Assembly (NCBI GenBank): GCA_977018835.1
Contig: OZ361258.1
Coordinates: forward strand, 186,001 to 250,000
DNA length: 64,000 nucleotides
Origin: Minutocellus sp. GHC0000111
Lineage: Eukaryota
Direction: 5' to 3'
The notes below the pieces were generated by a model that was not told the origin of the DNA, ran no database searches, and saw only the letters and a program-made list of their open reading frames with translations. Within the stretch, counting starts at the first letter, position 1. The number at the start of each line of letters is the position of its first letter. Of this stretch, positions 1,747-53,176 are shown one piece after another. Both the position numbers and the translations under genes were made by a program.

Positions 1747-2175
1747 ATGCTGAAGGTCCCAAAACTTAAAAGATGAGTGAGGCGTGGAAGTTGCCCAATG
1801 CGGCTTGTACTTGTACTGAGCGACAATGCTAATAGATAGAGTTGAAGATTAGAGATGCTTGAGTTCCCCTTCTCGAGCATCCAATGGAACGAGTTTACAG
1901 AGTTTACAGAGAAAGCAAGAACAAACCTCTATCCATCGCGCTGCTTTTTTGTTTTCCTCCTATCGCGTTGGATACGAGAAGGCGATGGAGCGTATCTCAT
2001 GAGACGATGTTGAGATTTTTGTATCGTCTGTTTTGAAGGTTGTCTCAACCCCGAAAGATATCCAAAAGGGAACTTCTAACTTCAGCTCAAAGGCACCCGG
2101 ATGAAGGAATTTGCCGGCATTCTTTGATTCGAGAAAACGAACAACGGCATTCCGTACGGTATCCATCGAAGAACA

Positions 2176-3948
2176 ATGGCCCTCCGAACTGGATTCGCGG
2201 CATCTTCCAGGCATATCTTGAGATGTACGGGCTCGCACACCGGTAAAGGTCGTATCTTGGCGTCGGCGGCCACCGTCTCTGTGGACGATACGATTTATAC
2301 GCGGCCATCCAATGCTCTTTATCTTCTTCTTCGGACCTCCTTCCGGCAGCAGCATACCAAAGATTCCCATGCGGCATTCCACTCCTCCGGCAGCGACATG
2401 GAGGGCGGTGACTTGGACGATTTGTGCAGCAAGCACATGGAATTGCCCGCTGATGAGTTTGCAAGGGGGTGTAGCTTCCTTCATCAGGTTGCCCTGGGGA
2501 ATTCAGGCGAGTTGGAGAAGATCGTCGCCGCAGAACCTGAACTCGTCAACTTCCGTGACTATGATCGCCGCACGGCCCTGCACATTGCCGCATCCGAGGG
2601 TCATCTCGGCATATGCCAGTTCTTGGTCGATCGGAGCGCCCGTATCAACCGAAGCGATCGTTGGGGGCATTCTCCCTTGGATGATGCGTATCGTCACAGA
2701 CATTCGTCGGTCATGGACTATCTACGCTCGTGCGGCGCAGCCTTTGGATCTCCGTCCCAGGCCAATAACTTCATCTCGGCCGCTTCGGAGGGAGATTTTG
2801 AAGAAGTCCGAGCTTTGATGGAACTTGGGGATGTCGACTTGAATGAAGGTGATTACGACAAGCGAACTGCTTTACATCTTGCCGCTGGCAACGGCCGTGC
2901 TGGAATAGTTCAAATGCTATGCGAGAAAGGCGCCGATGTCAATGTGCGAGATCGATGGGGTAATCGGCCGCTGGACGATGCCAATGCCTCCAATCATCCC
3001 GAATGTTCCGAAATCCTGAGTCTGCACGGAGCAAAGCCGGGCTCTTCGGAATCATCTCTTTGCTCCAGCAAGGAAGCACTATTGGACTTGCTTGATCAGT
3101 ACGGGAAAGTACGAGACGGTGTCCTGTCGCTGGACTGGCACGACGTGAGCGATCTACTCAAGGGAGTTGGCGAAGAGCCAACGGATGCTGTTGTTCAACA
3201 GCTCTTTTCGATTGCCGATGTAGATGGAGACGGCCTAATCAATACCGAGGAATTTCTCCAGAACTCTGATATCTTCCTTGCCGGCAGACCTGCGAGAATT
3301 ATTCTGGTCGTTGGTGGTCCTGGCAGTGGGAAGGGTATGCTTTGCGAGCGTCTTGTGAAGGAGTGTGGCGTTGTACACTTGTCTTCTGGAAATTTGTTGC
3401 GTGAGGAAGTGGAAAGAGGGACTGCCCTTGGCCAGCAAGTGGCCGAAATTATGCAGAGCGGAGGCTTGGTGTCATCTGCAATCATGGTGGCCCTTATGCA
3501 GCAAAAAATGAAAGATCATCCTGGCAAACGTATCCTACTCGATGGCTTCCCCCGTTCGAGGAAAAATGCAGAAGACCTCGTTACACTTTGTGGCAAGCCC
3601 GAGCTAGCACTTCATCTTGATTGCGACGACACCGTTTTGATTGAAAGAATTATGAAAAGGGCCGAATCTGGGGAGCGAGCCGACGACAACATCCAGACCG
3701 CTCTGCAGCGCATTAGAACATACCACAAATCGCACGACATGACCCTTGAATTCCTACGCGAGCAACATGTTCCTATGGTTTACCTTGATTGCTCTGCCAC
3801 TCCGGAAGGAGTTTGGAATCAGCTCAAGGCTGTCGGGCGGTTGATGCGACAAGCCGTCAAGCTCCCAACGGATGGCAATAACAGCAAGAAGTTGGACAAT
3901 AATGCTGCCGGCAAGCCTCATTCGGACAATTTTGAGATTCCTGCATAA
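2176..3948 (+). CDS. Ankyrin-repeat / EF-hand / adenylate (UMP-CMP) kinase fusion
   Basis: Two DYD(R/K)RTALH ankyrin blocks, EF-hand DVDGDGLINTEEF, P-loop GGPGSGKG, HLSSG, LLDGFPR, R.DDN. Confidence 0.9.
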   Translation: MALRTGFAASSRHILRCTGSHTGKGRILASAATVSVDDTIYTRPSNALYLLLRTSFRQQHTKDSHAAFHSSGSDMEGGDLDDLCSKHMELPADEFARGCSFLHQVALGNSGELEKIVAAEPELVNFRDYDRRTALHIAASEGHLGICQFLVDRSARINRSDRWGHSPLDDAYRHRHSSVMDYLRSCGAAFGSPSQANNFISAASEGDFEEVRALMELGDVDLNEGDYDKRTALHLAAGNGRAGIVQMLCEKGADVNVRDRWGNRPLDDANASNHPECSEILSLHGAKPGSSESSLCSSKEALLDLLDQYGKVRDGVLSLDWHDVSDLLKGVGEEPTDAVVQQLFSIADVDGDGLINTEEFLQNSDIFLAGRPARIILVVGGPGSGKGMLCERLVKECGVVHLSSGNLLREEVERGTALGQQVAEIMQSGGLVSSAIMVALMQQKMKDHPGKRILLDGFPRSRKNAEDLVTLCGKPELALHLDCDDTVLIERIMKRAESGERADDNIQTALQRIRTYHKSHDMTLEFLREQHVPMVYLDCSATPEGVWNQLKAVGRLMRQAVKLPTDGNNSKKLDNNAAGKPHSDNFEIPA

Positions 3949-16195: not shown

Positions 16196-19100
16196 CTACA
16201 CTGCAAACGCAGACCTGCCATGGCGAGACCGTATTTTGCTACGACTGCCGGTGCTTGATGGCGACATTCGCATGGGAGATGCGTCACTACTAGTATCGCC
16301 GCCGCTACCTGCTCCAATTGAGCCACGTTTGCCCTTTTTACGTGAAGCCTTCCGAGACCGGCTTTTCCGTCTGCGGGAAATGTACGGGCCCGTCCTATTG
16401 TCGCTGCAATATCGTCGAAAGAAGGTGAATTTCTTGCGTACTGTATCGAGAACAAGAATTGAAGAAGAAAGTACGATGATTTTGAGCAAGTCAATCAACG
16501 GCAACGCCTCGGTTTGGAAGATCTCTTGGAGAGGCGGAAAGTAAATGATGAGTAACTGCCCAACGATGGAACTCCCAGTGGCCCAAAGAAAGCTTGGATT
16601 TGAGAACAAGTTGAGTTCGTAAAAGCAAAGTTCGGACGATCTGCAAGCATATGCGTTGAAGAGGTCAAGGTTCATGAACGTCATAAACGTCATTGTTGTA
16701 TCTCTGCGGGTTACTTGTCCATCGTCGAGCTCATCGGCAAAAATTCCAAGTGTGAGAAAGACGATCCATGCTGCAGAAGTAATGGCGCGTATAAGGAGTG
16801 CCCTGGTGAGGACCGAATCCTCGGCATTTCTTGGTTTGGCCCGCAAAATGGCCTCGTCGACAGGCTCAACTCCGAGCGATTGTGCGGGAGGGCCGTCCAT
16901 CACAATGTTGATCCAGAGAATCTGCATAGCATTGAGTGGGTTTGGCAGTCCGAAGATGGTGGCGATGGTTTCCATGGTCAATGCGGCAAAGGACGTTGAT
17001 AGCTGGAACGAAAGGAAATTACGAATGTTGTAAAATATGCCCTTGCCTTCGGCGACAGCATGGCAAATCGTTGTAAAGTTGTCGTCGGCAAGGACCTGTT
17101 CATGATGGGAAGAACGTAAGCAAAATGTCAGAGATAACCCACAGCCATAATGGAAAGGAAGAGAGCAATTTATTTCAGCCAACGAAACTTACCATATCCG
17201 CAGCTTCTTTGGCAACGTCTGTGCCCTCCTTGCCCATTGCAATTCCAATATCGGCAGCCTTTAGTGCGGTCGCATCATTAACGCCATCTCCTGTCATGGC
17301 CACAATTTCCTTCTGTCCTTGAAAGGCGCACACCAAGGCAAGCTTGTGTCTGGGAGCAACTCGGTAGAAGACCTTGACACCGATTATTGCTTCGGCGAGA
17401 GACTGAGGGGGGATGGCATCCAGCTCTTCACCGCTCAAGGCACCAGTGACACCACTTTCCAGGTCGTCCATGGGATTGTGTGACACGGGTTGATGGGATC
17501 CGGAGTGAGCAGCAGAACTCGAGTGAAGAGAGGTATCGATTGGTCCTACAATGCCACATCTCTTGGCAATAGCGATTGCAGTCTCTTTGCTATCACCAGT
17601 GACCATTAGAACATTGATTCCACCACTACGAAGAACACTAACGGCTTCCACAACGCCCTCTCTTGGTGGATCTTCCATACCGATCACACCGGCAAAGGTG
17701 AGATCATCGAGCGATGGACCGTACGCCATCCCCAGAACACGAAGACCGTTGGCCGCCATTCTGCGAGACTGGGTCAGGGCGCGACTGCTACCCTGGTCTG
17801 TGAGGGGTGTGGCCGATCCATCGACGGCAGTGTGAGATGTGCACTCGGATAGAACAGCCTCAGGCATACCTTTTACAAAGTAAAGAGATCCGTCCACCGG
17901 TTGGGTGGTGGTACTGTTGGGATTGACTTTTCGGGGAGAAGATTTGGGCCTTCTTGCGGCGATTGTGAATGCAGTACAAGAGTGGGCGCCGCCGACTGGC
18001 CGAGCTCGGACCTCCATCCTTTTTCTATCACTGGAGAAAGGAATCTCTTGTAAACGATGATACAAAGGCCGAGGATCAGGAACGCCAGCCTTGACAGATC
18101 CGATCAAAAGGGCCAGCTCAGTCGGTTGGCCGGACATGGCTGCGCCCGAAGTACCCTCAATGGCTTCATGCACTTCGCTCTGAATGACTGCGTTGTTGCA
18201 CACACTTGCAACGCCAAACACTGCCGATATAGCTGTGTGCTCCATTGAGGTCTTCTTCACTCGCTGACAACCCGCTAGTTTTGCATTTTCGTCGCCCATG
18301 TCGGCATCCTCGGCGGCATCGCTACGAACCAATTCACCCTTGGATATGTCATATCCGACGCCGGTCAATCCGAACGAAAGACTGGGAAATGCTAGGGTAT
18401 AAATGCTTCGTGCGGTCATTTCGTTTTGCGTCAGCGTTCCTGTCTTGTCACTCGCAATCACAGTAGCACACCCCAACGATTCCACCACCGGCAACTTTTT
18501 GATAATAGCATTTGATCGGGCCATTCGAAGGACACCAAGAGCGAGTGTCACGGTGACGCAGATGGGCAAGCCCTCAGGGATTGCTGCGACCGCTAAACTG
18601 ACAGCCACCGTAACGGTCTCCAAAAAGGGCCGACCCATGAACCATCCCAGCAGAGCAATGATAGCGATGGCAACGCTCGACACATAAGCAAGGGTTTTGC
18701 CAAGCTCGTCGATCTTGAGCTGAAGAGGCGACTTGCGGCTTTCTACCTCGCCCAACTCTTGTGCCACCTTGCCAAACTCGGTCCTATCACCAACAGCCAC
18801 AACTAGTGCCCTTCCCCTCCCACTGCATACGAGCGTTCCCATGAAGCAAATGTTGCTCTGACTTGTGAGAGGAGGTGCCGGTGAGGTATCGCTCAGTATT
18901 TGCATGGCATCGCCGCTTTTCGATACCGGATGATTCTCTCCCGTTAGCGACGATTCGTCCAACGTCAGCTCGACACCATCGATGACACGGCAGTCGGCCG
19001 GCACCCGATCGCCGGTGCTGAGCAAGATAAGATCCCCCACCACCAAGTCCTTGGCGGGGAATTCATCCGTCACTCGTCCATCGCGCAAGACCGTACACGT

Positions 19101-19733
19101 GTGCGGCACTAAATCCGTCAGCGCCTCCAATGCCATCTCACTTCGATATTCCTGGACGGCCGCAACCAGACATACAATGGTCAGGGCAAGCGCGATGGAA
19201 ACGGCGTCCGATGTCTGCCCCAATGCGAGGCTGATGGCGGCACTTCCCAGTAGCATCAAGTTGAGCGGTTCCTTGACCTGATCGGCAAAGGCATGGATGA
19301 CGGGGAGGGCGCATGGCAGGGCCGACACGATTCGCGCACATCTCCGACCGACAAGTGGCAGCTTCTGCAAAAAGGCCAGGGTGCAGTCCTCGTCCTCCTC
19401 CTTGTGGATGGAATTGTCCCCGAAGCTTCCCCTCAAGGCATGAACATGGGCGGTGGACCAACCCCTGGAGAGGAGGTGGGTGCTCTCCCTCCAACCGCCG
19501 GGCTTACCGGCCGCTATGCCCCCCAGGCTGGACAGGGCGCTGGCATTGCCCAGAGCACCGGACCGGCCGGCGGGGGTGGACAATAGGAGGGACGAGAGCT
19601 TCCGAGCCGCCTCGGACACATCCCAAGAACACTCTTCGTTGCGGCTGTAGGGGTAGGCCGAGGACGAGGTCGAAGACTGGTTCTCATTGCTACTGCCGCC
19701 ACCACCGTCCATCGATGATGCCGAGTGCATCAT
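16196..19733 (-). CDS. P-type IIA Ca2+/Mn2+ ATPase (PMR1/SPCA-like), intron 17096-17192
   Basis: DESSLTGE, AIPEGLP, SDKTGTLT, TGDS, MTGDGVND, spliced DMVLADDNF, ILWINIVMDGPPAQSLGVE. Confidence 0.95.
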
Positions 19734-31865: not shown

Positions 31866-32412
31866 CAGAATGCAGACGGCGAAGGCACCGTCACGCCATT
31901 GGAACGGCGGGTGTAACATATGGTCGACCTCGGGGCGTCAGGGGTATGGATCGGTGCGAGGGGATGATTGCTGCGCCGGGATGGCCCTTCTCAAGTGATG
32001 CGAAATGCCAGCGAAACGTTCTGATCAAAGTCCCGTCCGAGAGGAATCTTCTAGCCCTTGGCGAAAGAACGAGGTGGATGTACCGATCTATGACCAATAT
32101 TGCAGAATCTTTTGACCGATCTAGACATCGTGGAATCGTGTCGCCCGGTGTTGCACGCCGTCGCTGTCCGACTAAGAGATCTCAGAGCCATTTGGGTTTG
32201 ATGGACAGCTCGGACAAATCTAGAAGGCTTACGAGGTCAGATTCGCGAGAAATCGAGCGCCCGGTTTTTGACTGCTTTCGAGGGGATTGAAAAGCGCCTC
32301 GAAGAATAGTCATGCTGAAATATTTAAGAAAATGGCTATTTTTACTCTAATTTTGATTTATCTTCATATGAAACAATAATTCGGATAAGACTTTAGATTT
32401 CAGCGGCTCTAA

Positions 32413-32975
32413 TCAAATGGACGCGTTCGTGCGACGCGACGGTTCGGCCTCCATCTCGTCTTCATCTTGAACGATGGCATGATACTCGCCTCGGATCGGC
32501 AGTACGATGCATTCGTCCCGGATCTCGCACCACAGCCAATCCGGGATGAGCTTGAGCTTCTTTAGCTCCCACTTCACGCCGTTGAACTTGTAGATGAAGG
32601 TAACTGAGGAGTGGAACATCTCCGCGGCCTTGTCGTACACCGATTCAGTTATTGCCACGACATCATCCATGTCGAGGGGCATGTTCTCGGCCCTTATCGC
32701 CCGGCAGACGAGTCGACTGACGACATTGAGGAGCATGTGCTTCTCAAAATCCTCGGGCCCGTCAATCTTGAGAGTTTTCTCCTGCTCAATGATGATGGCC
32801 AAGACAGCGGTGAGTATGTGTTCAATCCATTTGTGTCTCGGGCGGAAGTCGAAGCTGAGCATTTCGATGACGCGATCGGCATACTTGGACCGGTATACTG
32901 CTTCCCAACGAGTGCCGATGATTCATCTGATTCGGCCGCCTTCCGTTCTGTCATCGACGATCTTGCAACGGCGAC
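32413..32975 (-). pseudogene. Second (cargo) ORF inside the mariner element, with an in-frame TGA and no clear 5' end
   Basis: ORF 32413-32862 extends upstream in frame through one TGA into the frame of ORF 32923-33117. Confidence 0.45.
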
Positions 32976-32993
32976 CCGGCGGTATACTGCACC

Positions 32994-34294
32994 ATGTCTC
33001 TTTGCAATTGCCAAGTGCAGGGGGAGCAGGCAAAGGTGGACTATTCGGTGCTGTCCAGCGCAGAGCATGGTGCACGATTTTCGGGATGGATGAAGGCGTA
33101 TGGTGCTCTACCTGCATCTGAGAAGGCGATGTGGGAGATGAAGAGGAGATCTCATCTGGCTATGCAGCCATACATTCGAGATGTTATTGTTGATGCTCTG
33201 ATACGAAATCCTCGGGAATCTTGGCGGGAGCTGGAGGTTGATGTCAACTTTTGGTGTTCCTACTCGGCAATACGGCGGTGGATAATGTCGTGGGAAGGGT
33301 TCCGGTACTATGCCGAAAGGATCATCCCTCTCCTTACTACCCATCAGATGGAGAAACATTTGGTATTTGCGCGGAAATTCCGAAACAATTGGGGGCTCGG
33401 CGGTGGCAAGTTTCTCCTTATTATGTTCGATGAGAAGTGGTTTTGGGGCTTGGTTCTTCGATCGTATGCCAAGCAAGTTGCAGAATTGGGTATTGATCCT
33501 CGGTCCTTCTCGGCATGTCACCGAAATCACATCAACAAGTGCATGGTGGTAGCATTGAGAATGGCGGCATTGCGTTCAAGCTTGGACTTTTTCGGGCTCA
33601 GGCGCATAAAATTGCGAGGCAGATGGTAAGGGAGGCGGTGCGGCAGGCAGATGGTAGAATCAAATATTGCGGCCCGGTGGTTCGGAAGAAAGACGATCTA
33701 TACCTTGTGGATTATTGCGCGGTGACTGGATGCAGCCATGGCACCCTTGATAATCCCAAGTTCCCACTGAAAGCTTTATTTGAGAACAAGATGTTTCCGG
33801 ATGTTGAGGCTTTGGTCGGACCTGGTGGAAAGTTTGAAGGATATGTCCCTATTTTTCAGGGCGACAATGCTGGGCCCCATGCCGAGACTGAATTTGTGGA
33901 ATATGTGGAAGGATACTGTCGGGACAAGGGATGGCGTTGGGAACCTCAGGCCCCGCAAATGCCCCATATGAATGTTCTTGATCTGTCTGTTTTCCCTTGC
34001 ATGTCAAAGCGGCATACAATGTTGAGCCGCGATCGGGAGGGGCTGAAGGTTTTGACAGAAGATCAGACTTGGGATGCAGCGGAGGAAGTTTGGATGGGGC
34101 TGGAAAACTGGAAGATCGCATCGGCATACATCCAGGCTCATAGAATTGCAAAGAAGGTAATCGTTGCAAAAGGCAACAATGATTTTCTTGGAAACGGTGA
34201 AGGCATTCATGTTGGGGTGCGAAAGGATTTCAGGCCGACTGAAAATGGCATGGTTCGGATAGATGGGAAAAATTATCGCTCCTCCTCCTGCTGA
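32994..34294 (+). pseudogene. Mariner-like transposase, frameshifted near 33550
   Basis: FDEKWF, QGDNAGPH, QAPQMPHMNVLDL; 38 residues between the 2nd and 3rd Asp. Confidence 0.85.
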
Positions 34295-34867
34295 TCCAAC
34301 CATGGATAATTAGTCCTGCGGTGCTTTTAAGTTATGTTATGTTTAAAATAATACTAGATTATTTAGATTCGAGCTATATTTGTGCTACTACACACACATG
34401 CCGTACATGCATGTGTAGTGCTCTCTTGTCAGTTTTGATGGTTCCGGCTTTACATGCATGTGTCCGTGTCCGGGTTGCGGGCCCAAAAATCGACATTTTT
34501 TGGTCCCGGCCCTGCGCTCGATTTCTCGCGAAACGGACTTCGTAGACATCATCACAAGAATTTTTGATTTGTTCTCGTTATCGTGACACATGTACCTCAA
34601 TTTCATACTCTGTATACGACGTGTGGAGTCTTTTTTCTTTGCTAGAGTACTACGTAGCTAGTAGCTACGAAACTTTCGCCAGCTAGCTGGCCACCTTTAC
34701 ATATGTACTTGCATACATCAGTCTTTTCAGTCACAGTGCTCTCAGTGGTGCTTTTCCGCGAGCCAGCAACGCCAGTTTCGAAGTTCGCGCGTGGGCCTGC
34801 TCTCGCGCATTCCGCCACACACCCAGCCACCGGCGACCGACAGGAACCACACCCACGTACGCACGAG

Positions 34868-42789: not shown

Positions 42790-42847
42790 AGCGTCGAGTA
42801 ACAGACTATAGTTATGTACCTAGGTACATTTTAGAAACCTAATTCAG

Positions 42848-43042
42848 TGTTGATACCGTGGGATACGTACGTACGTATACATACGTACGGTACGTACGGT
42901 GATCAGACCACTGACCAGTGCCCTCTCCTGACCGTTGATCCATGGGCCAACGACATCTCCGATGGCCCATTTTTCATCTACGTAGGTCCTATTAACCTCT
43001 ACTAGCTATATCTATCTAGCTTAGCTTTAGGACCTCTTAGCA
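42848..43042 (+). repeat. 5' LTR (195 bp)
   Basis: Direct repeat of 48861-49056 with 4 substitutions and 1 indel; TACG repeats in its first 55 nt. Confidence 0.97.
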
Positions 43043-43343
43043 GACCTACGTGATACATCTTTTCCACCCGTGCTCGCCCCATTTCGGTTGGTTCGCACCT
43101 CACCGGTTTGTCTTGGGTTCTCACTCGTCACGCAAGAAAAACCGACACATCTTCAATCGGCCAAAACGACCGTTTCTTTCGACAACATTGGAACGACGAT
43201 CCAATCCCTTCCCCGAAAGTCCTGACCAGATCGACCCATCCAATCGATCACACTTCTCTGGATCGAACCTTCTGTCGATCACACGTCTCGCGCAGCAACA
43301 CCGCCGTGCTGCCTGTCTTCGCTGAGCTGACTGAAACACCAGC

Positions 43344-44627
43344 ATGAATCCCGACGCAGTTTTTGGCCAACCTCTCGGCGCAGCGCCGATTCTCCCCACC
43401 AAGTTAATCACACGTATGAATGACCCAGGACAACCTCCCCAACGCGAGCGTGTTGCCAAAGCGCTCAAGGAACTTCAACAAGCGGCGGCCAGCATTCCAG
43501 CAGGGTGCAATGATGACCACAACCTCGGCCATTTGGGCCTCGTCGTCAGCGATGCCGAACACACCACCAAAAGTAACGGCCGAACACATGTGCCTCCGGC
43601 AAATCCTGGCCCCAGCCCCACCACTCCCGCCGTGGCCAATCTAGACCAACGCGATCGTGCAATCCGGGGACATTACATCGAAAAGGGCCACTGCAACTTG
43701 TACGAGCAAGTCAACACGGCGCTCAAGAATCTCCTCCTCGACTCGATCGACGCCGTCTACATCAATCATCTCGAAGATGACATGCTCGGTTTCCAGCCAG
43801 TCACCACCCGCCAAATCATCGACAGCATTGCCGATCGCTACTTGAAATTCAACGAGACTCAGAAGGAGGAATTAGAGAAGCAGCTCGAGAAGCAGTGCGA
43901 CGGGGGACCCATCGACACCCACATCGCCATATTCAACAAAGTCTTCAAGGCGTTTGAAACGGCCGGCGAACCCTTCACCAACAAGCAAAAGGTCTCCAAG
44001 TTCTACCGCTCCGTGCGCAGGTTCTCATTGGCAAAGAAGGCATGCGAGGACTGGGACGACAGACCGGAGGCCGAACGCACGTGGGCCAACATGCAGTCGG
44101 ACTTCCGCGATTGGTATGATAAGAAGATGGCCAATACCACCACCGAAGCGGCAGGATATCATGGCGCGAATTTGGCCTCATCGGCCTCGGACGATCCATT
44201 TCTTTCTCGAGCCGATCTCCTTTTGGCTGACACCACCGAAGCCCTCAAGACCAACCAAGCCATGATGGCGAACCTCGCCAAAAAGAGCAACGAGAAGGAT
44301 GATACCATTGCCAAACTTCGCCAAGAAATAGCTTCACTCAAGGCCGAGAACCGCGTTCTACGTGAGGGACGCAACCATACTGGTGGCAGTGGAGGCTACC
44401 GCGGCGGTGGCCAGCAGAACGGCGCCGGCCACTTCCCAGGCCAAGGTCCTAACCTCAACCGCCAGGAGAAGCGGGAACTGCAGTCGATCCTCCCCAGAGG
44501 CCATTATTGCCACACGTGCGGCTATTCGTCCAACCACCCCAGCTTTGAATGCACTTGCAAAGGGCCCAACCACGTTGATAACGCCACCAAGTACAATCCT
44601 TGCGGTGGTAGCTCGCGTCGTAACTGA
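43344..44627 (+). CDS. gag: Copia gag
   Basis: HLGLVVSDAE, W...Q..F major-homology-like block, C-terminal YCHTCGY...H.S.EC....PNH...AT..N..GGS knuckle. Confidence 0.85.
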   Translation: MNPDAVFGQPLGAAPILPTKLITRMNDPGQPPQRERVAKALKELQQAAASIPAGCNDDHNLGHLGLVVSDAEHTTKSNGRTHVPPANPGPSPTTPAVANLDQRDRAIRGHYIEKGHCNLYEQVNTALKNLLLDSIDAVYINHLEDDMLGFQPVTTRQIIDSIADRYLKFNETQKEELEKQLEKQCDGGPIDTHIAIFNKVFKAFETAGEPFTNKQKVSKFYRSVRRFSLAKKACEDWDDRPEAERTWANMQSDFRDWYDKKMANTTTEAAGYHGANLASSASDDPFLSRADLLLADTTEALKTNQAMMANLAKKSNEKDDTIAKLRQEIASLKAENRVLREGRNHTGGSGGYRGGGQQNGAGHFPGQGPNLNRQEKRELQSILPRGHYCHTCGYSSNHPSFECTCKGPNHVDNATKYNPCGGSSRRN

Positions 44628-47600
44628 GCGGGAGGGACGGTGGATGTTAATCAGTATAAAATAGAGGACAGCATATCTGAATCCACCTCCTCCCCGCCTT
44701 CGTTAGCTTTTCTTACGTCAAAAAGCAAACCTCCAACTCAAGAGCCAATCGTCCTCGCAGCAGACACTGGAACGACGGGACATTTTGTCCAGAAGCCCCA
44801 ATGCCTATCGTGCGATGGCCCTATTTTCAACGTCCAACAGACAGCAATTCCTATCAGCGTCACCCTTCCGGATAATAGCACAATGACGAACACCCACGAG
44901 GCCACGCTTCGCCTCCCTGGGGTTTCCCCATCGGCTAGCAAGGCCTATATTTTCAATAATATGGCATCATCGCTCCTATCGATTGGGCAGCTGTGTGACG
45001 ATGGATGTGTTGCCACTTTCGACAAGGATTCGGTAGTCATCGCCAAGGACAATACCGTCATTTTGCAAGGTAAACGAGACCCCTCAACGAAATTGTGGAT
45101 GGTAGATCTTAATTGCTCGCCCACCATGTCGCCGCTCCCCGGCCCCAACGTCATCCAATATGCTGCCAACGCCGCAATTGCCCAGGAGACGGTTCCGGAA
45201 CGTGTAGCCTTTTTACATTGGTGCGCTGGCAGTCCTCAGCTATCTGCCTGGTGCAAAGCAATCGATGCGGGATTTTATAGATCTTGGCCAGGCCTCACAT
45301 CAAAGCTTGTACGTAAGCACATGCCACAGTCGATACCGATGATTAAAGGTCACTTAGACCAGCAGCGCAAGAACATCAGGTCGACCAAGCCCAAACGGTC
45401 GATGGCTACGCCAAAATCTCTCCCTGGGGTGGACGAAACCGAGCAGGATCTCCACCCGGCACAACACCAACAGCGCACCAACTATGTCTTTGCTGATTGT
45501 CATGACATAACGGGCCAGATCTTCTCAGATCAGCCCGGCCGTTTCTTGGTATCGTCTATTTCTGGCCACCAGTACATGGTGGTCGTCTATGACTATGACT
45601 CTAACAGCATCTTGGCCGAACCAATGAAAAGCCGATCGGGAACGGAAATGCGCCGAGCGTACCAAACTATTTTCGAATACCTCTCCAAGCGAGGATTTCG
45701 CCCAAAATTGCAACGATTGGATAATGAAGTGAGTCGAGAGCTGAAGGAGTTCATGGAAGAAAAGGATGTAGATTTTCAATTGACCCCAACGCACTCCCAC
45801 CGCCGAAATGCGGCCGAACGAGCCATTCGAACCTTTAAGAATCATTTCATTGCGATTCTCTGTGGTACCGATCCCGACTTTCCCCTCATCTTGTGGGATA
45901 AATTGCTGGAGCAGGCGGTAATGACCCTCAATTTCCTGAGAGCATCCCGAGTCAACCCTCGACTATCAGCGTACGAGCAACTCAATGGCGGCTTTGATTT
46001 CAATCGCACGCCTCTCGGCCCCCTCGGATGCAAGGTCATCTTTCACGAGATGCCCTCGGCACGCGGCTCTTGGTCCCCGCATGGCGTTGATGGGTACTAT
46101 GTCGGTCCAGCCATGGAACACTACCGGTGTTACAAGGTTTGGATTGAGGAAACTCGGGCGGAACGCACTGGTAACACACTCGTCTGGCTCCCCAAAATGA
46201 TTCCGGTACCCAAAACGTCGTCGGCCGATGCAGCAACAGTCGCAGCTCATGAACTCCTGCACGCTCTACAGAATCCACATCCAGCGGCACCCCTTGCTCC
46301 CCTTCGAGACGAGCATCGTCAAGCTTTAGAAAAGCTCTCCGAGATTTTCAACAGCGTGACCCCAGCAGAATCTGCCACCTCCGCCTCTGATGAGACGATG
46401 CAGACAACCGCAGCTCCGAGGGTGCCGGAGAACGATGACGAAACCCAACGATTCCGCCTCGGTGCCATCGTCGCCAAAGTGTTTGGAGATCGCAATTACA
46501 AGGGTAGAGTCGTTGCATTTGACAAGAAGCACAAGTACTACAAAATCAAATACGAGGACGACGACGTAGAAGAGATGAACGAGACTGAAGTAGGCCGTCA
46601 CCTTGTCTCCAACCCCAACGCTCCGTTACCTCAGCCCCAGCAACCTCCGAGGGTGGCAAAATCCTCCACATGTGATGCAGCCACCACTAAAAGCCGTCGA
46701 TCACGTCGATCCAACGCGCCACCTCGCTCGTCAGTTTCTTCCAACTACTACAATCCTTTGGCTGCAGTAGACGAGCCCAACGGCGACGATGATGATAATC
46801 ATGACGACGATGCAACCGTCGTAACATCCAATCAAAGTTCCAATGCCCCCACCTCCCGTCGGCAACGTAAACGCAAGTCTCCAACGATCGATACCACTCC
46901 AACATTGCCAGCTCCAGCAAAATCGACAAGCAAGTCCAAACCATCGACCGCCAAACCACCTCGACGACGATCATACCGTCAGCGAGGGTACATTCCACAT
47001 CGGAACCCTCCCCCACGGCCATCATCTCGTCGTAGTACCCACCACGTGGCCAACATGGCAGCTTTCTCGCCTTTACCAAACCTCCAACACTTTGCTAACG
47101 CCGTCGTCCATCCCGATACTGGTGCAATGCTTGAACACCGCGACCTCCTCAAAACGAACATGAGGGACCAATTCATTCAAGCAAACATCGATGAAATTGG
47201 ACGGCTAACGGACGGCCGAGTTGGAAACAGTGCTAGCATTCCCTCCAACACAATGGCTTTCGTCCACTGGTCCGAACTGCCTCGGGGGGAAAAGCCACAT
47301 GCCTCCGCATTGTCGCCGACTATCGCTCCCATAAACCAAATCCCAATCGAGTTTGATGGACTGCAGGAGGCGACAAAATTCATTACCCTGGTACAGTCTC
47401 GACCCCGACCGCTGAAATGTTGACTGCAATTTTTTTTTCAACAGCGTCATCTCTACAGACAACGCTCGTTTCATGGGAATTGATATCAGTGACTTCTATC
47501 TCAATAGCACCATGCCAGAGCCAGAATGGATGTGGGTGCCAGTAGCTCTCATCCCCGACGAAGTCATGGAAGCCTACGACCTCCACGACAAAGTAAAGAA

Positions 47601-48812
47601 TGGTCGAGTATTGGTCAGAATCGATGGCGGAATGTGTGGATTACCCCAGGCAGGGCGCCTAGCCTACGATCAACTTGTCAAGCATCTCAAACCCCATGGC
47701 TATTTCCCTTGCAAGCGTACTGCCGGCCTTTGGAGGCACAAAACCCGCCCAATTACCTTTTGCCTAACCGTTGACGATTTTGGAGTAAAGTATGTCGGGA
47801 AAGAGCATGCAGACCATCTCATTCAGGCCCTCAACTCCAAGCACAAGATCACTACCGATTGGGAAGGCCGACTTTATTGTGGTATTCAACTCGAGTGGAA
47901 CTACGAGGCCAAATGGGTGGATCTATCTATGCCTAACTACGTCAAGGAGATGCGCCACAAGTTCCAACACGACCGCCCCTCACGGCCCGAGCATGCGCCA
48001 TATCGATGGAATCGTCCGACGTGTGGCCCGGGACCCCAGCTGCCAGAACCGGAAGACGACTCTCACCACCACTCGACGCCAAAGGCATCAACGAAATTCA
48101 ACAGGTGGTGGGCAGCTCCTTGTACTATGGTCGAGCAATTGATTCAACAATTTTACCGGCGCTCAACAGCATCTCAGCGGAACAATCCAAAGCTACCGAG
48201 CGCACTCGACAAGATGCCAAGAAGCTTCTAGATTACCTTGCAACCCATCCCGACGCAGTCATTCGATGCGTCAAGTCAGACATGATCCTACATGCACATA
48301 GCGACGCCTCCTACTTGTCAGCCCCGAAATCAAGAAGCAAGCTCGGAGGGTACTTCTACCTAAGCTCCCGACCTAAGGACCCGCACCGCCAGCCTGACTC
48401 AAGTGATCCCATGCCACCAATGAATGGAGCCATCCTCGTCAATGCCAATATCATCAAGCATGTAATGTCCTCAGCCGCTGAAGCCGAATTGGGAGGATTA
48501 TTTTTCAACATGAAAGATGCAGCACCAATCCGGGCAGCACTAGAAGAAATGGGTCACCCGCAGCCCCCTGCTGCTATCGTCGTTGACAACTCTACAGCAT
48601 CTGGAATCGCCAATAAAACCGTCAAGCAAAGACGGTCTAAGGCTATGGACATGAGATTCTACTGGGTCCAAGATCGCACAGAGCAACGACAATTCCAGGG
48701 AGCACTGGCGGAAAGGAGCGCAAAATTTGGCCGATTATTTTACAAAGCACCATCCCGCCCGCTACCATGTCGACATGCGACCAGTCTCTACTTACATGTA
48801 GATTCCAATTAG
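44628..48812 (+). pseudogene. pol: Copia pol (protease, integrase, Tudor-like insert, RT, RNase H); RT/RH disrupted
   Basis: ADTGTTGH; SDQPGRF, RLDNE, NAAERAIRTFKNH; GIDISDFYL, G(Y>C)GLPQAG, TVDDFGVKY; SDASY, SAAEAE, DNSTA, DMRFYW. TGA at 47354-47356 and frameshifts near 47290, 47430, 48065 and 48700. Confidence 0.92.
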
Positions 48813-48860
48813 GACTCTACATGTAGATTCAATGGCACTAGTCATTGATCTGCGAGGGTG

Positions 48861-49056
48861 TGTTGATGCCGTGGGATGCGTACGTACGTGTACATACGCA
48901 CGGTACGTACGGTGATCAGACCACTGACTCAGTGCCCTCTCCTGACCGTTGATCCATGGGCCAACGACATCTCCGATGGCCCATTTTTCATCTACGTAGG
49001 TCCTATTAACCTCTACTAGCTATATCTATCTAGCTTAGCTTTAGGACCTCTTAGCA
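48861..49056 (+). repeat. 3' LTR (196 bp)
   Basis: Direct repeat of 42848-43042. Confidence 0.97.
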
Positions 49057-49391
49057 TTCAGACTACGACAACGCAGTTCCGAGCCGTGTGAATATTTTTG
49101 TGAGACCCATTTGGAGGAGGAGCGATTTCTCGTCTGTGGTCCGTCCCCAGCAACAAGCACATTCAATATGTTTATCTCAGGGCTTAGATTTCAGATGAAA
49201 TGAGCATATTGAGGGCTTTGATTTTTGGGAGACATGCTTATTTGGGTTGCATGGCAACAACTCATTTTTAGAGCGTTTTCACGTGACCGCCGACAATGCG
49301 CAATTTTTTGTGGCGACAAAAATGAAGCCACTAATTCGACCCCAAAAATCTCGGATCCAAACACAGTGACTTGTTAGTAAAGTACCCCGAG

Positions 49392-49487
49392 AACATTGTA
49401 CCAAAGTAATTTTATTGTTGATTATGCTCTACAACATCCTTCTTCTAAGCGCAGTAATCAGCAATAAAATTACTTTGGTGCAATGTT
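49392..49487. repeat. Inverted repeat, 33-bp arms with 30-nt spacer
   Basis: 49392-49424 versus the reverse complement of 49455-49487: 31/33 identical. Confidence 0.85.
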
Positions 49488-49858
49488 TACGAAACATGGC
49501 GGAGGGGGTGTCTGCTCTCTCGTGAAATCACTCTTTACCTTTCGAGTTCAGAGGATTTGAAAGTGACGTGATGATGACGTATTAGAAACACGACCACACC
49601 AGACCAAAAATCCAAGCTCACTTTTTCTAACTCCGAGGAATAAATGACGGCCAAGATGGAAGTCGGGGCAAGAACCAAGTTATGGTCACCAACTTCTACA
49701 TGTAGTCGAGAGATATTGTGCACCAGAACCAATAAATGTACATTATGTGATGATTTTTTTCGACATTTGCATTCCTCACCCAGGGAAAAAATAATGCATT
49801 TTTGGAGAAGCACCAAATCAAAATGTAATGAATAGAAATGGACACATGCTATGATAAG

Positions 49859-52647
49859 TTATAGCAAATCAATGACTCCATCGTCTTCATCATTTTCATC
49901 TATGTCGTCCTCAATGTCATCATCTTCGCCGGGAGCATCAATTGGCCAGAGTGGTTCACCATCCTCTTCAGCTTCTTCCACGGCAATTTTTGCGAGACCA
50001 GCCTTTCCCCGTCTGGTCTCCACAAGATTGTTACCGCCACGACTTCTCTTGATGTTGTTATATATCACTGGAAGTTTTCCAAATACATTGAGAAAGGCCT
50101 CTTTTGATGCGACATTGGCCCATACTTTCATCACAGTCTTGTCAAGAGCATTCGCATCATTCTTCTGACCGCGATGCTCCCTTTTCGACGGCCGACTGCA
50201 AAGACATCCAGATGCCGAGATCAAGAACATTTGTCTCGGGCGACCGAGGAACCTGCTGGATTATCTCAATCTTATATTTGTTTTTGAGGTCCTCGGTGTA
50301 CTTCTCAACTGCTTCATTGGACCCATGACCGCCGGCATTGTCCATCATAAGATACATAACATCAGACTCCTGAACATTTTGTGGATCCCACTTCACCCAA
50401 TGATGTGCGTCTCGAATCGCCTTCCCGACCTCATTCATAGTCTCCAACATCCATTTGGAGTCGCAGCTACAGTCCTTGGTAACCTTATCGCCCCGTTGAT
50501 ACCGCACCCCGAGCTCAAGGTCGTCGATCTCAACCTTCACCTTCTCTCCATTGCTATCAGGAGTGTGTCGCTTGAGACTCGAGATCTTTTGATTGTAGCC
50601 AACAGCGGCATGCTTGCGACTTTTTGCCTGACCGTCGGATTTGTGGTCCTCGTATTGAAGTTCCAATCGCTCTGTAACAAACTCAGAAAGGCCGTAGATT
50701 TCGGCAATGTGGTCGCAAAGATGGCCGGCGGTCATGTCAGCATTCTCGTCGTAAATGTCGCGCCAATCTTTGTCATTTTTTAGCGCATCGTTGACCTTAG
50801 CATCTGGAGAGAAATTCTGATTACGCGTAAGCTTTTCCACCTTCTGCTCCCTGGCGACTCTCTTGATCATGATGCGCCCATTGAAATCAACGTCTTTGGT
50901 TTCATCCTTCATTGGTCGGCCAACAACTCCAAGACACATAACTTTGACAGGGTGTCTTCTGGATCGAATTTTCGGGCTTGCCTCGGAAGCATGGATAGAC
51001 GCGAGGTTCGGACTACTTAGTTCTTCGTCAGAAAGTGGCAACATCTTGATCTTTCGTCGCCGAGTAGCAGTGTAAAACCACTTTTCATCAAGACACGCTA
51101 CAGGAATGTTGGGATCGGTCGTAATGTCCTCCCACTTTTCGATCCAATCAAGTGGCTTCCTACAATATTCGGGGGTGAGCCTCGGCTTCTCGATCGACGA
51201 CTTCTCCTTGCCGCCTTGCTTTTTCCACCAGCGAAAAAGCTGAAGACGATGGAGACTAATTGTCAGCCTATCTTCATCTGGAGTAGCTGATTTTGCGCTC
51301 ATACAGTCAGCTAGCTCCTTAAAGGTTGCCATCGCACCCTTCATCCGAGCAGCATGCCGATGCAGCTCGCGGAGACATCCTGGCTCCTTCTCCTCGATCA
51401 TGTCCGTGTGTGCCTTCCTTCCACGAACCTCCTTTCTGCCGATGGGATTGCTGATGCCATCAGTAAGGCTTTTGTAGAGCTGGTCTCTCCACTTGTAAAG
51501 CTGAGAACCACCAGTTGACTTGGCATAACCGTGATCGTGCGCAACTTGCCGACACGCGGCAGTTGCAATTTGTTGCCGGTCTTCATACGTGCGAGTTGGG
51601 TCGCCGCATCCCCACCAATCCGCGAGAGCCACGGCGCTGAACCGCATTCTTTCATTCGCCTGCTTTTCTTTCCTGATTGGTGTTGGTTCGGTGACGGTTG
51701 CATTGGGACGAGGAGGACGGAGCATGTCATCGTTGGCCATCCGAACAACAAAGTCGAGGCCGAGAGCGACCTTTACCTGTTCATCAATGTCACTGGAGGT
51801 GGCACAGACAACGGAAGTATCGGCTCCTCCTAAACCTTCATCATTGGGGGAGGCTGCAGCTGCTTCAGTGGCGGAAGTGTCACCAGTTCCCTTCAGCATG
51901 CTGAGGAGACTTGCTGGCATCCAACCCAGTTTCTTGGCCTCGTCGACTAGTGATTTTGCTCTTGCTTCGCAATGCGCTGACTGTGCCTCCTTTCTGTGTG
52001 AGCTGACAACCTCTCACCTAGCTTAGTAGCTAAGACAGTCGAGCGCCCAGAGAACAGAACTTCATCGGGATTTCTTTTCTCGTGCACCTTCTGTCCCTCC
52101 GGTCCAGAGAATTTCGGGTGGTTGTCCTCCTTCTTTTTACGCAACCTGTGAGCACAAACATAAAGCGCCCTGCGTCTTGTCTTCCCTCTCGGCCGGCACG
52201 TCGACAAGTGCAACTTCAAACTACAATGCTCCTTGAGATGTTGCTGCACATCCTTCCATTTTTCCTCGTTGTGCTGTAGCTCATGCTTTCCTCCCTGCCT
52301 AACCCTAACCCTAAATGTCATCTTTGCCGCAGGAATCGGGGGTTACTCTCCACCACAGATCCTTACCAGCCCTTCGAATGACATCTGCTGCAAGGAGAAA
52401 GGCCATGGGGATAGGAGGAGGGGCCGTCCTCTTCTTCGCCGACGACGGTGACGGCTTGGCGGGCGAATTTGACCGTGGCCGGCCGCTTCTTCGACGTGTT
52501 TGCGCTCGGCGATGGTGTTTTCGGCTCAGCTGCCGCCTTTGCCGCCTTCCTGGATGCCTTGGTGTTGCCTCTCTTGCTCCCTGAGAACGAAGTTCTGCTG
52601 CGTTTGTATTTTTTGGGCGTGGTCTGGTTGGTCGTCGTCATCGTCAC
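49859..52647 (-). pseudogene. Large DD39D transposase, frameshifted into 4 ORFs
   Basis: KPRLT, LDEKWFY, SRRHPVKVM, MDNAGGH, QVPRSPETNVLDLG (39 residues between Asp2 and Asp3); ORFs 52363-52647, 51947-52321, 50157-51920 and 49859-50230 are collinear. Confidence 0.85.
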
Positions 52648-52722
52648 AAAATTTGCGGGTTGGTTGCGGTGGTGAGAGTGAGGGTGTGCGGGGGACCAAA
52701 AAATATATGTGTTCCTGCCAGA

Positions 52723-52795
52723 ATCTACTGGACCTGCGAATTCAGTGGATACTACTGGTCGGTGGCAACCTACTGAATGAGCAGGTCCAGTAGAT
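52723..52795. repeat. Hairpin in the 5' subterminal region of the mariner element
   Basis: atctactggacctgc(ga)attcagt pairs with actgaat(ga)gcaggtccagtagat. Confidence 0.8.
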
Positions 52796-53176
52796 ATCCA
52801 CGAGTTGAGGAGTATTTGCGTTCCTCCCGAAGAGAATGTCGACTAACAAAACACGTGGTGGGAAATGAGAAATGGGTGCAAGAATGACCTTTTTTAGGGG
52901 TTATTGGTATACCCTCTACAAATCCTCTGAAACCGAAAGGTATTTGTGAGGTGCGTCGAAATTCTCTTTTTTCCTTTTGTGCAAATTAAGAAACCTGTCA
53001 TTGAAATAGAGAAAGAATGCCTGCCGGAGGCGTGCCCGCCGCGCCCGGGTGCATGCCAGGGAGCCCAGGCAGAACCAAGCAAGAACCAGCCAAGCGAAGA
53101 GCAACCTCGGTCAAAGAGCAGAGTATCTTGTCATCAATTTCTCGAGGGGCGTAGGGTCCCTAGCTAGCTTAAATCT

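What the first reader, a model, noticed from the sequence alone, without database searches (positions are those of the whole stretch)
42848..52940. Directional TpA->TpG/CpA hypermutation in transposons: a candidate 'inverse-RIP' genome-defence process
Seen: all 4 substitutions between the LTRs are TA in the 5' LTR versus TG/CA in the 3' LTR (48868, 48878, 48890, 48899). Conserved Copia residues change the same way, which fixes the direction as loss of TA: YGL->CGL (TGT 47635), TY.RIV->TC (47300), TVGG->TAGG (GCA 47363), KY->KH (47842), PTYG->PTCG (48022), IRY->IRC (48267), YW->HW (48703). The mariner transposases have C/H where Tyr is plausible (VACLDEKW, PGCLRELHRHA, KAHTD, DAHHW, SACHRNH), while flanking host genes keep motif tyrosines (GYGD, TKYLGG). 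Established: fungal RIP runs the other way (CA/TG->TA), and 5mC decay gives CG->TG/CA. Inference: a strand-symmetric A->G change at TpA, focused on repeats, as expected from adenine deamination or a mutagenic base modification of silenced chromatin. Ancestral residues are recalled from family motifs, and novelty needs a literature check.
Basis: partly seen in the sequence, partly recalled or inferred. Interest (0 to 1): 0.9.

Follow-up and report, generated by a model that had tools for sequence, protein, structure and literature searches.

The report
TA-erasing mutator in diatom transposons
In this diatom DNA a retrotransposon and a DNA transposon carry TG or CA where their relatives have TA, about 70 times more often than other A-to-G changes and not in the host gene tested, which is likely the same targeted DNA-mutating defence reported in 2026 in an unrelated alga, with an enzyme that is still unknown.

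Summary
Observation confirmed. The region is a diatom Copia element (42848-49056) beside a mariner-like transposon (49538-52940). Polarised against relatives, TpA->TpG/CpA changes hit 17 of 160 possible sites in Copia pol versus 1 of 661 other A>G sites, 11 of 61 versus 1 of 323 in the transposase, and 0 of 79 in a host ATPase. In near-identical transposase copies from megabase contigs, one Tyr codon is Cys in some copies and His in others, almost never Arg (1 seen, 50 expected), with no linkage between sites: independent hits on both strands after insertion, strongest at RTAY. The signature is already in print for Bigelowiella natans viral inserts (bioRxiv 2026, Illumina/Sanger-verified); I found no paper for diatoms. 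The scan noted it before on other diatom DNA (65 notes). No reads were available, so a long-read miscall is disfavoured (about 15%), not excluded. The enzyme is untested; adenine deamination is my best guess. Added here: the same copies carry frequent 2-4 bp tandem duplications (0.76 per kb), possibly repair scars. New variant of a known kind.

The parts
42843..42847 (+). 5-bp target-site duplication TTCAG (left copy; right copy 49057-49061)
   Evidence: sequence
42848..43042 (+). 5' LTR (TG...CA, 195 bp); keeps TA at all four sites that differ; starts 59 bp after the stop of a host GT90 glycosyltransferase ORF
43344..44627 (+). gag-like ORF; His at 43560 where 24 of 25 aligned homologs have Tyr (RTAY context); Arg at 43443 where 11 of 16 have Tyr (possible rare double change)
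44628..48845 (+). Copia (CoDi-like) pol with Tudor-like domain and RT; broken by five frameshifts and one TGA (47354); 17 TpA->TpG/CpA missense changes, 11 A>G and 6 T>C
48861..49056 (+). 3' LTR (196 bp); TA->TG at 48868, 48878, 48890 and TA->CA at 48899, all in RTAY context
49536..52942 (-). Mariner/Tc1-like DNA transposon: 24-nt inverted arms 49536-49559 and 52919-52942 whose outermost TA is read as the target duplication
   Evidence: family label rests on TIRs, TA ends and homologs carrying PF01498; the protein itself had no Pfam hit
49862..52358 (-). Transposase, with a 2-nt duplication near 52002 and a 1-nt insertion near 50181; 11 TpA missense changes in 373 polarised codons
32230..34544 (+). 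Second mariner-like element outside the given coordinates (TIRs 32230-32260 and 34514-34544; transposase 32931-34294 in two frames); only weakly affected in the window (1 of 6 TpA sites in conserved columns), while sister copies P0566 and P0638 carry Tyr->His/Cys
16199..19733 (-). Host P-type ATPase used as control: 0 of 79 TpA opportunities changed

Best explanation
Transposon copies in this diatom carry TA changed to TG or CA on both strands, site by site and copy by copy, and the likely cause is a nuclear DNA adenine deaminase that is predicted to act on silenced transposon DNA after insertion. Shown: the change is restricted to TpA, runs TA->TG/CA, favours R-TA-Y, hits each copy independently, almost never hits both bases of one TA, and spares the host gene tested. 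Inferred: (1) the changes are real heritable mutations (about 85%); (2) targeting is by chromosomal region or silencing state; (3) the chemistry is A->inosine, read as G at the next replication, which removes the TA so that the other strand is no longer a substrate; (4) the effect is to disable transposons, because Tyr codons of the transposase and pol are destroyed; (5) the excess of 2-4 bp tandem duplications in the same copies would be scars of staggered breaks made when lesions on opposite strands are excised. An ADAT2/TadA-type enzyme would explain the 5' T because tRNA A34 follows an invariant U33 (recalled, from no call).
For: Copia pol 17/160 versus 1/661; transposase 11/61 versus 1/323; host ATPase 0/79. 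47 transposase proteins from contigs of 21 kb to 5.3 Mb: 669/2525 TpA versus 35/13170 other A>G (the template was reverted only toward TA, which favours TpA). Direction-free repeat on 38 copies: 46 of 57 recurrent alleles are TA/TG/CA exchanges; 1/385 for other A/G, 0/228 for other T/C contexts. Arg at Tyr codons 1 seen, 50.4 expected if strands were independent. No linkage between sites (1 of 840 pairs at p<0.01, permutation mean 1.8) and no same-strand runs (103 of 212 neighbours, permutation mean 104). Load differs between copies (p=1.4e-7). Three close Copia copies are hit on opposite strands at one codon (45576, 45660, 44811). Proteins from 0.9-3.7 kb contigs show the signature too: P0500 has 4 of 5 Tyr changed to His/Cys (p=3e-4), P0154 and P0322 differ from their cluster majority only by Tyr->His/Cys. 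The same signature was seen as de novo mutation in Illumina-sequenced, partly Sanger-checked lines of B. natans.
Against: No reads and no genome were available, so neither the bases nor a candidate enzyme were checked; none of 29 ORFs or proteins scanned has a nucleic-acid deaminase Pfam hit (most of the window's long ORFs, not all). A>G on one strand and T>C on the other cannot be told apart from sequence. Sequencing platform of the short contigs is assumed from their length. 80 distant Copia loci from JGI metagenomes lack the signature (19/2769 TpA versus 45/9192 other A>G; CpG decay 103/3579), as do 5 of 6 distant mariner clusters, so it is not general in diatom elements. L001 DNA test not significant over all TpA. 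The short duplications were not seen in short-contig families (1 in-frame insertion in about 86,000 residues of 12 transposon clusters), and only one host gene served as control, under purifying selection.
Confidence: 0.5

Rival explanations
1. The mutations are real, but the marked base is thymine: an oxidised T (5-hydroxymethyluracil or 5-formyluracil) laid on transposon TpA mispairs with G and gives T->C.
For: The sequence pattern is identical to A->G on the other strand. In dinoflagellates 5hmU is made by TET/JBP enzymes, is linked to transposon silencing, and preferentially replaces T in TA and TC (PMC11572971, title and passages).
Against: That paper's passages give no mutagenic effect and never mention diatoms. 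TC is not hit here (0/228 for T/C exchanges before a pyrimidine).
Confidence: 0.2
2. Long-read artefact: a modified base in transposon DNA is miscalled as G or C, so the assembly shows TG/CA where the DNA has a modified TA.
For: Nanopore errors at modified motifs are mainly A/G and T/C confusions and are strand-dependent (10.1101/2023.09.15.556300, passages). The elements have 8 small indels in about 7 kb, three in homopolymer runs. No linkage among copies is also what an artefact would give. Some +2 events at TA could be merged alleles in a consensus. Reads were not available.
Against: A strand-majority miscall predicts runs of same-strand changes within a copy; none seen. A one-strand mark predicts about half the copies changed; hot sites reach 28 of 28 and 25 of 26. 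Indels in the copies are mostly 2-6 nt insertions (48) rather than 1-nt slips (3 insertions, 4 deletions). Sub-4-kb contigs show the signature. B. natans shows it in Illumina and Sanger data.
Confidence: 0.15
3. Real mutation from error-prone repair or a translesion polymerase working in silenced chromatin (for example at TA photoproducts or nicks), a by-product rather than a dedicated defence.
For: Co-occurring short tandem duplications (38 events, 33 distinct, in 16,676 matched residues) point to breaks and end-joining; end-joining of protruding ends can make tandem duplications (PMC5730883, abstract).
Against: The spectrum is almost a single change in a single context, cleaner than expected from a sloppy polymerase (own judgement). 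Duplications are not enriched near RTAY (6 versus 4.9, p=0.37).
Confidence: 0.1
4. RNA-level A-to-I editing (ADAR-like, U before A) fixed by reverse transcription, or ordinary lineage divergence misread from recalled motifs.
For: ADAR favours U before the edited A (stated in the preprint).
Against: The two LTRs of one insertion differ, both strands are hit, and a DNA transposon with no RNA intermediate is hit hardest. Ancestral residues were taken from database relatives, not memory.
Confidence: 0.05

Closest known systems
TpA hypermutation of integrated NCLDV and virophage DNA in Bigelowiella natans (Mettrop et al., bioRxiv 10.64898/2026.01.13.699255)
   Same: A>G and T>C transitions confined to TpA, both strands, limited to foreign or selfish DNA, against an otherwise ordinary spectrum; same proposed adenine deaminase; the preprint also finds DDE and RT domains among TpA-depleted genes.
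   Different: Host is a diatom (stramenopile), not a rhizarian; targets shown are a Copia retrotransposon and multicopy DNA transposons rather than single-copy viral inserts; RTAY preference and 2-4 bp duplications are not mentioned in the main-text parts I read (figures and supplements not seen); here inferred from assemblies, there measured as de novo mutation.
Fungal repeat-induced point mutation (RIP)
   Same: Transition hypermutation at a dinucleotide, on both strands, concentrated in transposon copies, each copy hit on its own.
   Different: RIP is C->T (CpA->TpA) and creates TA; this removes TA. RIP needs a RID-type methyltransferase-like protein, the sexual cycle and repeat pairing (recalled); none tested here.
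5-methylcytosine decay (CpG->TpG/CpA) in diatom transposons
   Same: Same end products TG/CA; present at low level here (3/231 in pol) and dominant in the 80 distant loci.
   Different: Starts from CG, not TA; outgroups show Tyr (TA), not Arg (CG), at the changed codons.
5hmU marking of transposons by TET/JBP enzymes in dinoflagellates (PMC11572971)
   Same: A non-cytosine mark on transposons with a reported preference for TA.
   Different: Reported as a silencing mark; no mutational effect in the passages read.

Membership tests
B. natans-type TpA hypermutation | Changes are A>G/T>C transitions confined to TpA | tested here: met
B. natans-type TpA hypermutation | Both strands affected | tested here: met
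   11 A>G and 6 T>C in pol; Cys/His splits at one codon
B. natans-type TpA hypermutation | Confined to foreign or selfish DNA, host genes spared | tested here: met
   host ATPase 0/79 versus Copia 13/147, p=0.005; one host gene only, missense sites only
B. natans-type TpA hypermutation | Verified as true de novo mutation in amplified reads | not testable with these tools
   no reads or genome available; indirect support
B. natans-type TpA hypermutation | Candidate ADAT2-like deaminase in the genome | not testable with these tools
   no genome held; none among the window ORFs scanned
Fungal RIP | C:G->T:A transitions, mostly CpA->TpA | tested here: not met
   non-CpG C>T 5/709 in pol, 0/286 in the transposase
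Fungal RIP | Triggered by sequence duplication | tested here: inconclusive
   a single-member related transposase (P0158) on a contig of the same length as a mutated copy has no derived Tyr->Cys/His among 18 derived changes; but the 5' LTR, itself a repeat, is unchanged and the B. natans target is single-copy
Fungal RIP | RID-type enzyme acting in the sexual cycle | not testable with these tools
   no genome, no crosses
5mC deamination | Ancestral dinucleotide is CpG | tested here: not met
   relatives have Tyr, Ile, Val or Thr codons that need TA
Copia LTR retrotransposon (diatom CoDi-like) | TG...CA LTRs, 5-bp TSD, gag then pol with RVT_2-type RT | tested here: met
   RVT_2 scores below Pfam's cut-off; named homologs are diatom proteins; the label CoDi is recalled

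The most novel reading that the evidence does not exclude
Diatoms of this lineage run a dedicated nuclear genome-defence editor, a natural double-stranded-DNA adenine deaminase guided by silent chromatin, that rewrites R-TA-Y in newly inserted transposons of every class and, through excision of its lesions on opposite strands, also leaves 2-4 bp tandem duplications; shared with Rhizaria, it would be an old SAR-wide counterpart of RIP and a natural adenine base editor.
Probability: 0.3. Interest if true: 0.9.

Novelty: new variant of a known kind. Interest (0 to 1): 0.66.

Why it matters
If real, it extends a mutation process so far reported in one preprint on one rhizarian alga to diatoms and from viral inserts to both classes of transposon, and gives it a sequence preference (RTAY) and a possible second scar (short tandem duplications) that narrow the enzyme. 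A diatom with hundreds of young, partly mutated copies makes the question testable: reads, base chemistry and candidate knockouts. A natural DNA adenine deaminase would interest base-editing work. It also means LTR-pair dating in such genomes is badly inflated: all four substitutions between these LTRs come from this one process.

Tried and rejected
Whole genome not held; read-level check not available, so the artefact question rests on indirect tests. Sliding-window TpA observed/expected shows no clear drop in the elements; RTAY share of TA is lower in pol and the first transposase (0.23, 0.19) than in 8 host stretches (0.33-0.46) but not in gag or the second mariner (0.33, 0.36). Comparing the window with the majority of its sister copies is misleading because the majority is already mutated. 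L001 DNA asymmetry over all TpA not significant. Viral-contig scan for the transposase found nothing. Linkage among copies, which would have proved inheritance, was not found. Second mariner gave no significant signal. 80 distant Copia loci and 5 of 6 distant mariner clusters lack the signature; 121 long Copia homologs have at most 2 Cys/His in 28 conserved Tyr columns. Association of short duplications with TA (13 of 33 versus 6.5 expected, p=0.005) is soft because the fit allowed TA->TG/CA freely; near RTAY there is none. The binomial on insertions versus deletions used a mistyped count and is not used. Rows dropped: 5 near-duplicate copies and copies under 150 matched residues (38 of 47 kept); 2 duplicates; codons next to frameshifts. 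Literature: searches returned no paper describing this in diatoms (titles and abstract starts seen); one search returned nothing useful; a 2025 diatom TE preprint has no occurrence of TpA, hypermut-, deamin- or dinucleotide. The library lacks most subscription journals.
Full report
What the region is. The window is diatom DNA: the named homologs of a host P-type ATPase are all diatoms (Odontella aurita 61%, with unnamed relatives up to 95%), and named homologs of the retroelement come from Phaeodactylum, Fragilaria and Fistulifera. No whole genome is held and no sequencing reads could be obtained. The finding covers a full-length Copia element, LTRs 42848-43042 and 48861-49056 with a TTCAG target duplication, gag 43344-44627 and a pol broken by five frameshifts and one stop, followed by a mariner-like DNA transposon with 24-nt inverted ends at 49536-49559 and 52919-52942. 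A second mariner-like element lies at 32230-34544.

Checking the observation. The two LTRs differ by four substitutions and one 1-nt indel; all four are TA in the 5' copy and TG or CA in the 3' copy at the stated positions. All four lie in R-TA-Y context: 4 of 11 such sites changed, 0 of 12 other TA sites. To replace recalled motifs with data I polarised the pol against three relatives (88, 85 and 76% identical). In 877 of 1338 codons all three agree; the window differs at 42, of which 17 are TpA transitions. Per opportunity that is 17/160 for TpA, 1/661 for other A>G, 3/231 for CpG C>T, 5/709 for other C>T and 12/4275 for transversions (p=6e-12 for TpA versus other A>G); 11 are A>G and 6 T>C. 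A stricter filter gives 13/147 versus 1/623. The transposase gives 11/61 versus 1/323, and the host ATPase 0/57 and 0/79 with two sets of relatives. The cited sites of the first mariner hold; SACHRNH in the second does not decide anything. gag is hit as well. Composition alone does not show the effect, and a DNA comparison with the 77%-identical locus L001 is significant only for RTAY (8 versus 0; all TpA 25 versus 14, p=0.11).

The family view. The transposase has a cluster of 275 proteins. I held 47 proteins from contigs of 21 kb to 5.3 Mb. An ATPase on a contig of the same length as one of these is 98.7% identical to the window's, so they likely come from another strain or haplotype of the same species. 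Using the window DNA as codon template, TpA changes fill 669/2525 opportunities against 35/13170 for other A>G. Because that template was reverted only toward TA, I repeated the test without direction on 38 copies: of 57 alleles seen in two or more copies, 35 are TA/TG or TA/CA exchanges and 11 are TG/CA two-step exchanges through TA; other A/G contexts give 1/385 and transversions 4/2721. One Tyr codon is Cys in some copies and His in others (for example 51410: 15 Cys, 10 His, 1 Tyr), and Arg, the double change, occurs once where 50 are expected if the strands were independent. So a hit destroys the substrate. Sites are unlinked and neighbouring sites do not share a strand: each copy was hit independently after a recent burst. 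The load differs among copies. Flanks matter: RTAY 0.40, YTAY 0.21, RTAR 0.15, YTAR 0 of 224 (copies share sites, so these are not independent counts). Close Copia copies show the same opposite-strand hits. A single-member related transposase, apparently from the same assembly, is not hit.

How widespread. 80 distant Copia loci from metagenomes show CpG decay (103/3579) and no TpA excess (19/2769). Five of six distant mariner clusters show no Tyr->Cys/His variant among 209 variants. The sixth contains P0500, from a 948-bp contig, with 4 of 5 Tyr changed and several other TA-compatible changes; P0154 and P0322 differ from their cluster majority only by Tyr->His and Tyr->Cys; P0136 and P0138 differ at five sites, two of them Tyr/Cys. 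The process is therefore patchy, and visible outside the long-contig assembly if those short contigs are short-read assemblies, which I infer from their length only.

Real or artefact. Nanopore data confuse A/G and T/C at modified motifs (10.1101/2023.09.15.556300, passages), so this rival is serious. It predicts either same-strand runs within a copy or at most about half of the copies changed; neither is seen. The indels in the copies are not homopolymer slips: 48 insertions of 2-6 nt, 3 of 1 nt and 10 deletions (one of them the window's own lesion) in 45 copies; 38 of the 48 fit an exact tandem duplication, against 51/174, 40/351 and 11/168 for random insertions of 2, 3 and 4 nt. That is 0.76 per kb; only 4 of 33 distinct events sit in an existing repeat. 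The window has three such 2-nt duplications among eight indels. Short-contig families lack them and the host control is too short to decide (0 in 2.55 kb, p=0.14), so they may be repair scars or a consensus artefact. I put real mutation at about 85%.

Mechanism. Shown: context, direction, both strands, exclusivity, independence among copies, sparing of one host gene. Inferred: an enzyme acting on DNA in silenced regions. The unchanged 5' LTR, 59 bp from a host stop codon, against 4 of 11 RTAY changed in the identical 3' LTR, fits targeting by neighbourhood rather than by sequence, on one example. Adenine deamination to inosine is the simplest chemistry (0.5); thymine oxidation gives the same pattern (0.2; 5hmU prefers TA and TC in a dinoflagellate, PMC11572971 passages); error-prone repair (0.1; end-joining of protruding ends makes tandem duplications, PMC5730883 abstract) and artefact (0.15) remain. 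RNA editing is excluded by the LTR pair and the DNA transposon.

Comparison with what is known. Mettrop et al. (bioRxiv 10.64898/2026.01.13.699255; I read parts 1-3 of 5 and searched the rest; figures and supplements not seen) report 231 of 302 mutations in two viral inserts of Bigelowiella natans, nearly all A>G/T>C on TpA, with a subset confirmed by Sanger, and propose an ADAT2 homolog. This window meets the three sequence features of that process; the read-level and enzyme features could not be tested. It is not RIP (target base not met) and not 5mC decay. The preprint does not mention diatoms, and searches found no diatom report. Earlier notes of this scan describe the same pattern, often near saturation, on other diatom DNA (65 notes), including the RTAY preference and fading near genes; I had reached the signature and the RTAY result before looking, and treat these notes as leads, not support. 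One look-up for short duplications with this process returned no note holding all the words.

Verdict. A real-looking, highly specific mutational process caught at an intermediate stage, a new variant of a process first reported in 2026. Interest 0.66; most novel reading probability 0.3, interest 0.9.

Noticed in passing
transposase copies P0155-P0316; window near 48063, 48790, 52002: Frequent 2-4 bp tandem duplications of non-repetitive sequence in the mutated copies (38 events in 16,676 matched residues). Could be end-joining scars or a long-read consensus artefact; not seen in short-contig families.
   Followed up: partly
window 49392-49487: 33-nt inverted repeat (94% complementary, 30-nt spacer) between the Copia element and the mariner; MITE-like or a transposon end.
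   Followed up: no
window 46460-46600: The Copia pol carries a Tudor-like domain (PF21743, above cut-off) between integrase and RT, also in relatives P0001-P0003; a possible chromatin-targeting module.
   Followed up: no
window 42848-42900: The LTR start is unusually rich in GTAC/ATAC repeats: 10 RTAY sites in about 50 bp, the preferred target of the mutator.
   Followed up: partly
window 44625-44630: gag ends in TGA and the pol frame continues in the same frame directly after the stop; read-through or re-initiation not examined.
   Followed up: no
window 52723-52795: 24-nt subterminal inverted repeat with a 25-nt spacer inside the mariner, upstream of the transposase.
   Followed up: no
P0158 (contig length equal to that of P0166): A 769-aa single-member relative of the transposase shows no TpA signature although a mutated copy lies on a contig of the same length: low copy number, recent arrival or domestication.
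   Followed up: partly
window 2128-3948: Host ORF fusing ankyrin repeats, EF-hand and adenylate kinase domains.
   Followed up: no
L018, L020, L030: Distant Copia loci with several CpG C>T changes at conserved codons, ordinary 5mC decay, a useful contrast.
   Followed up: partly
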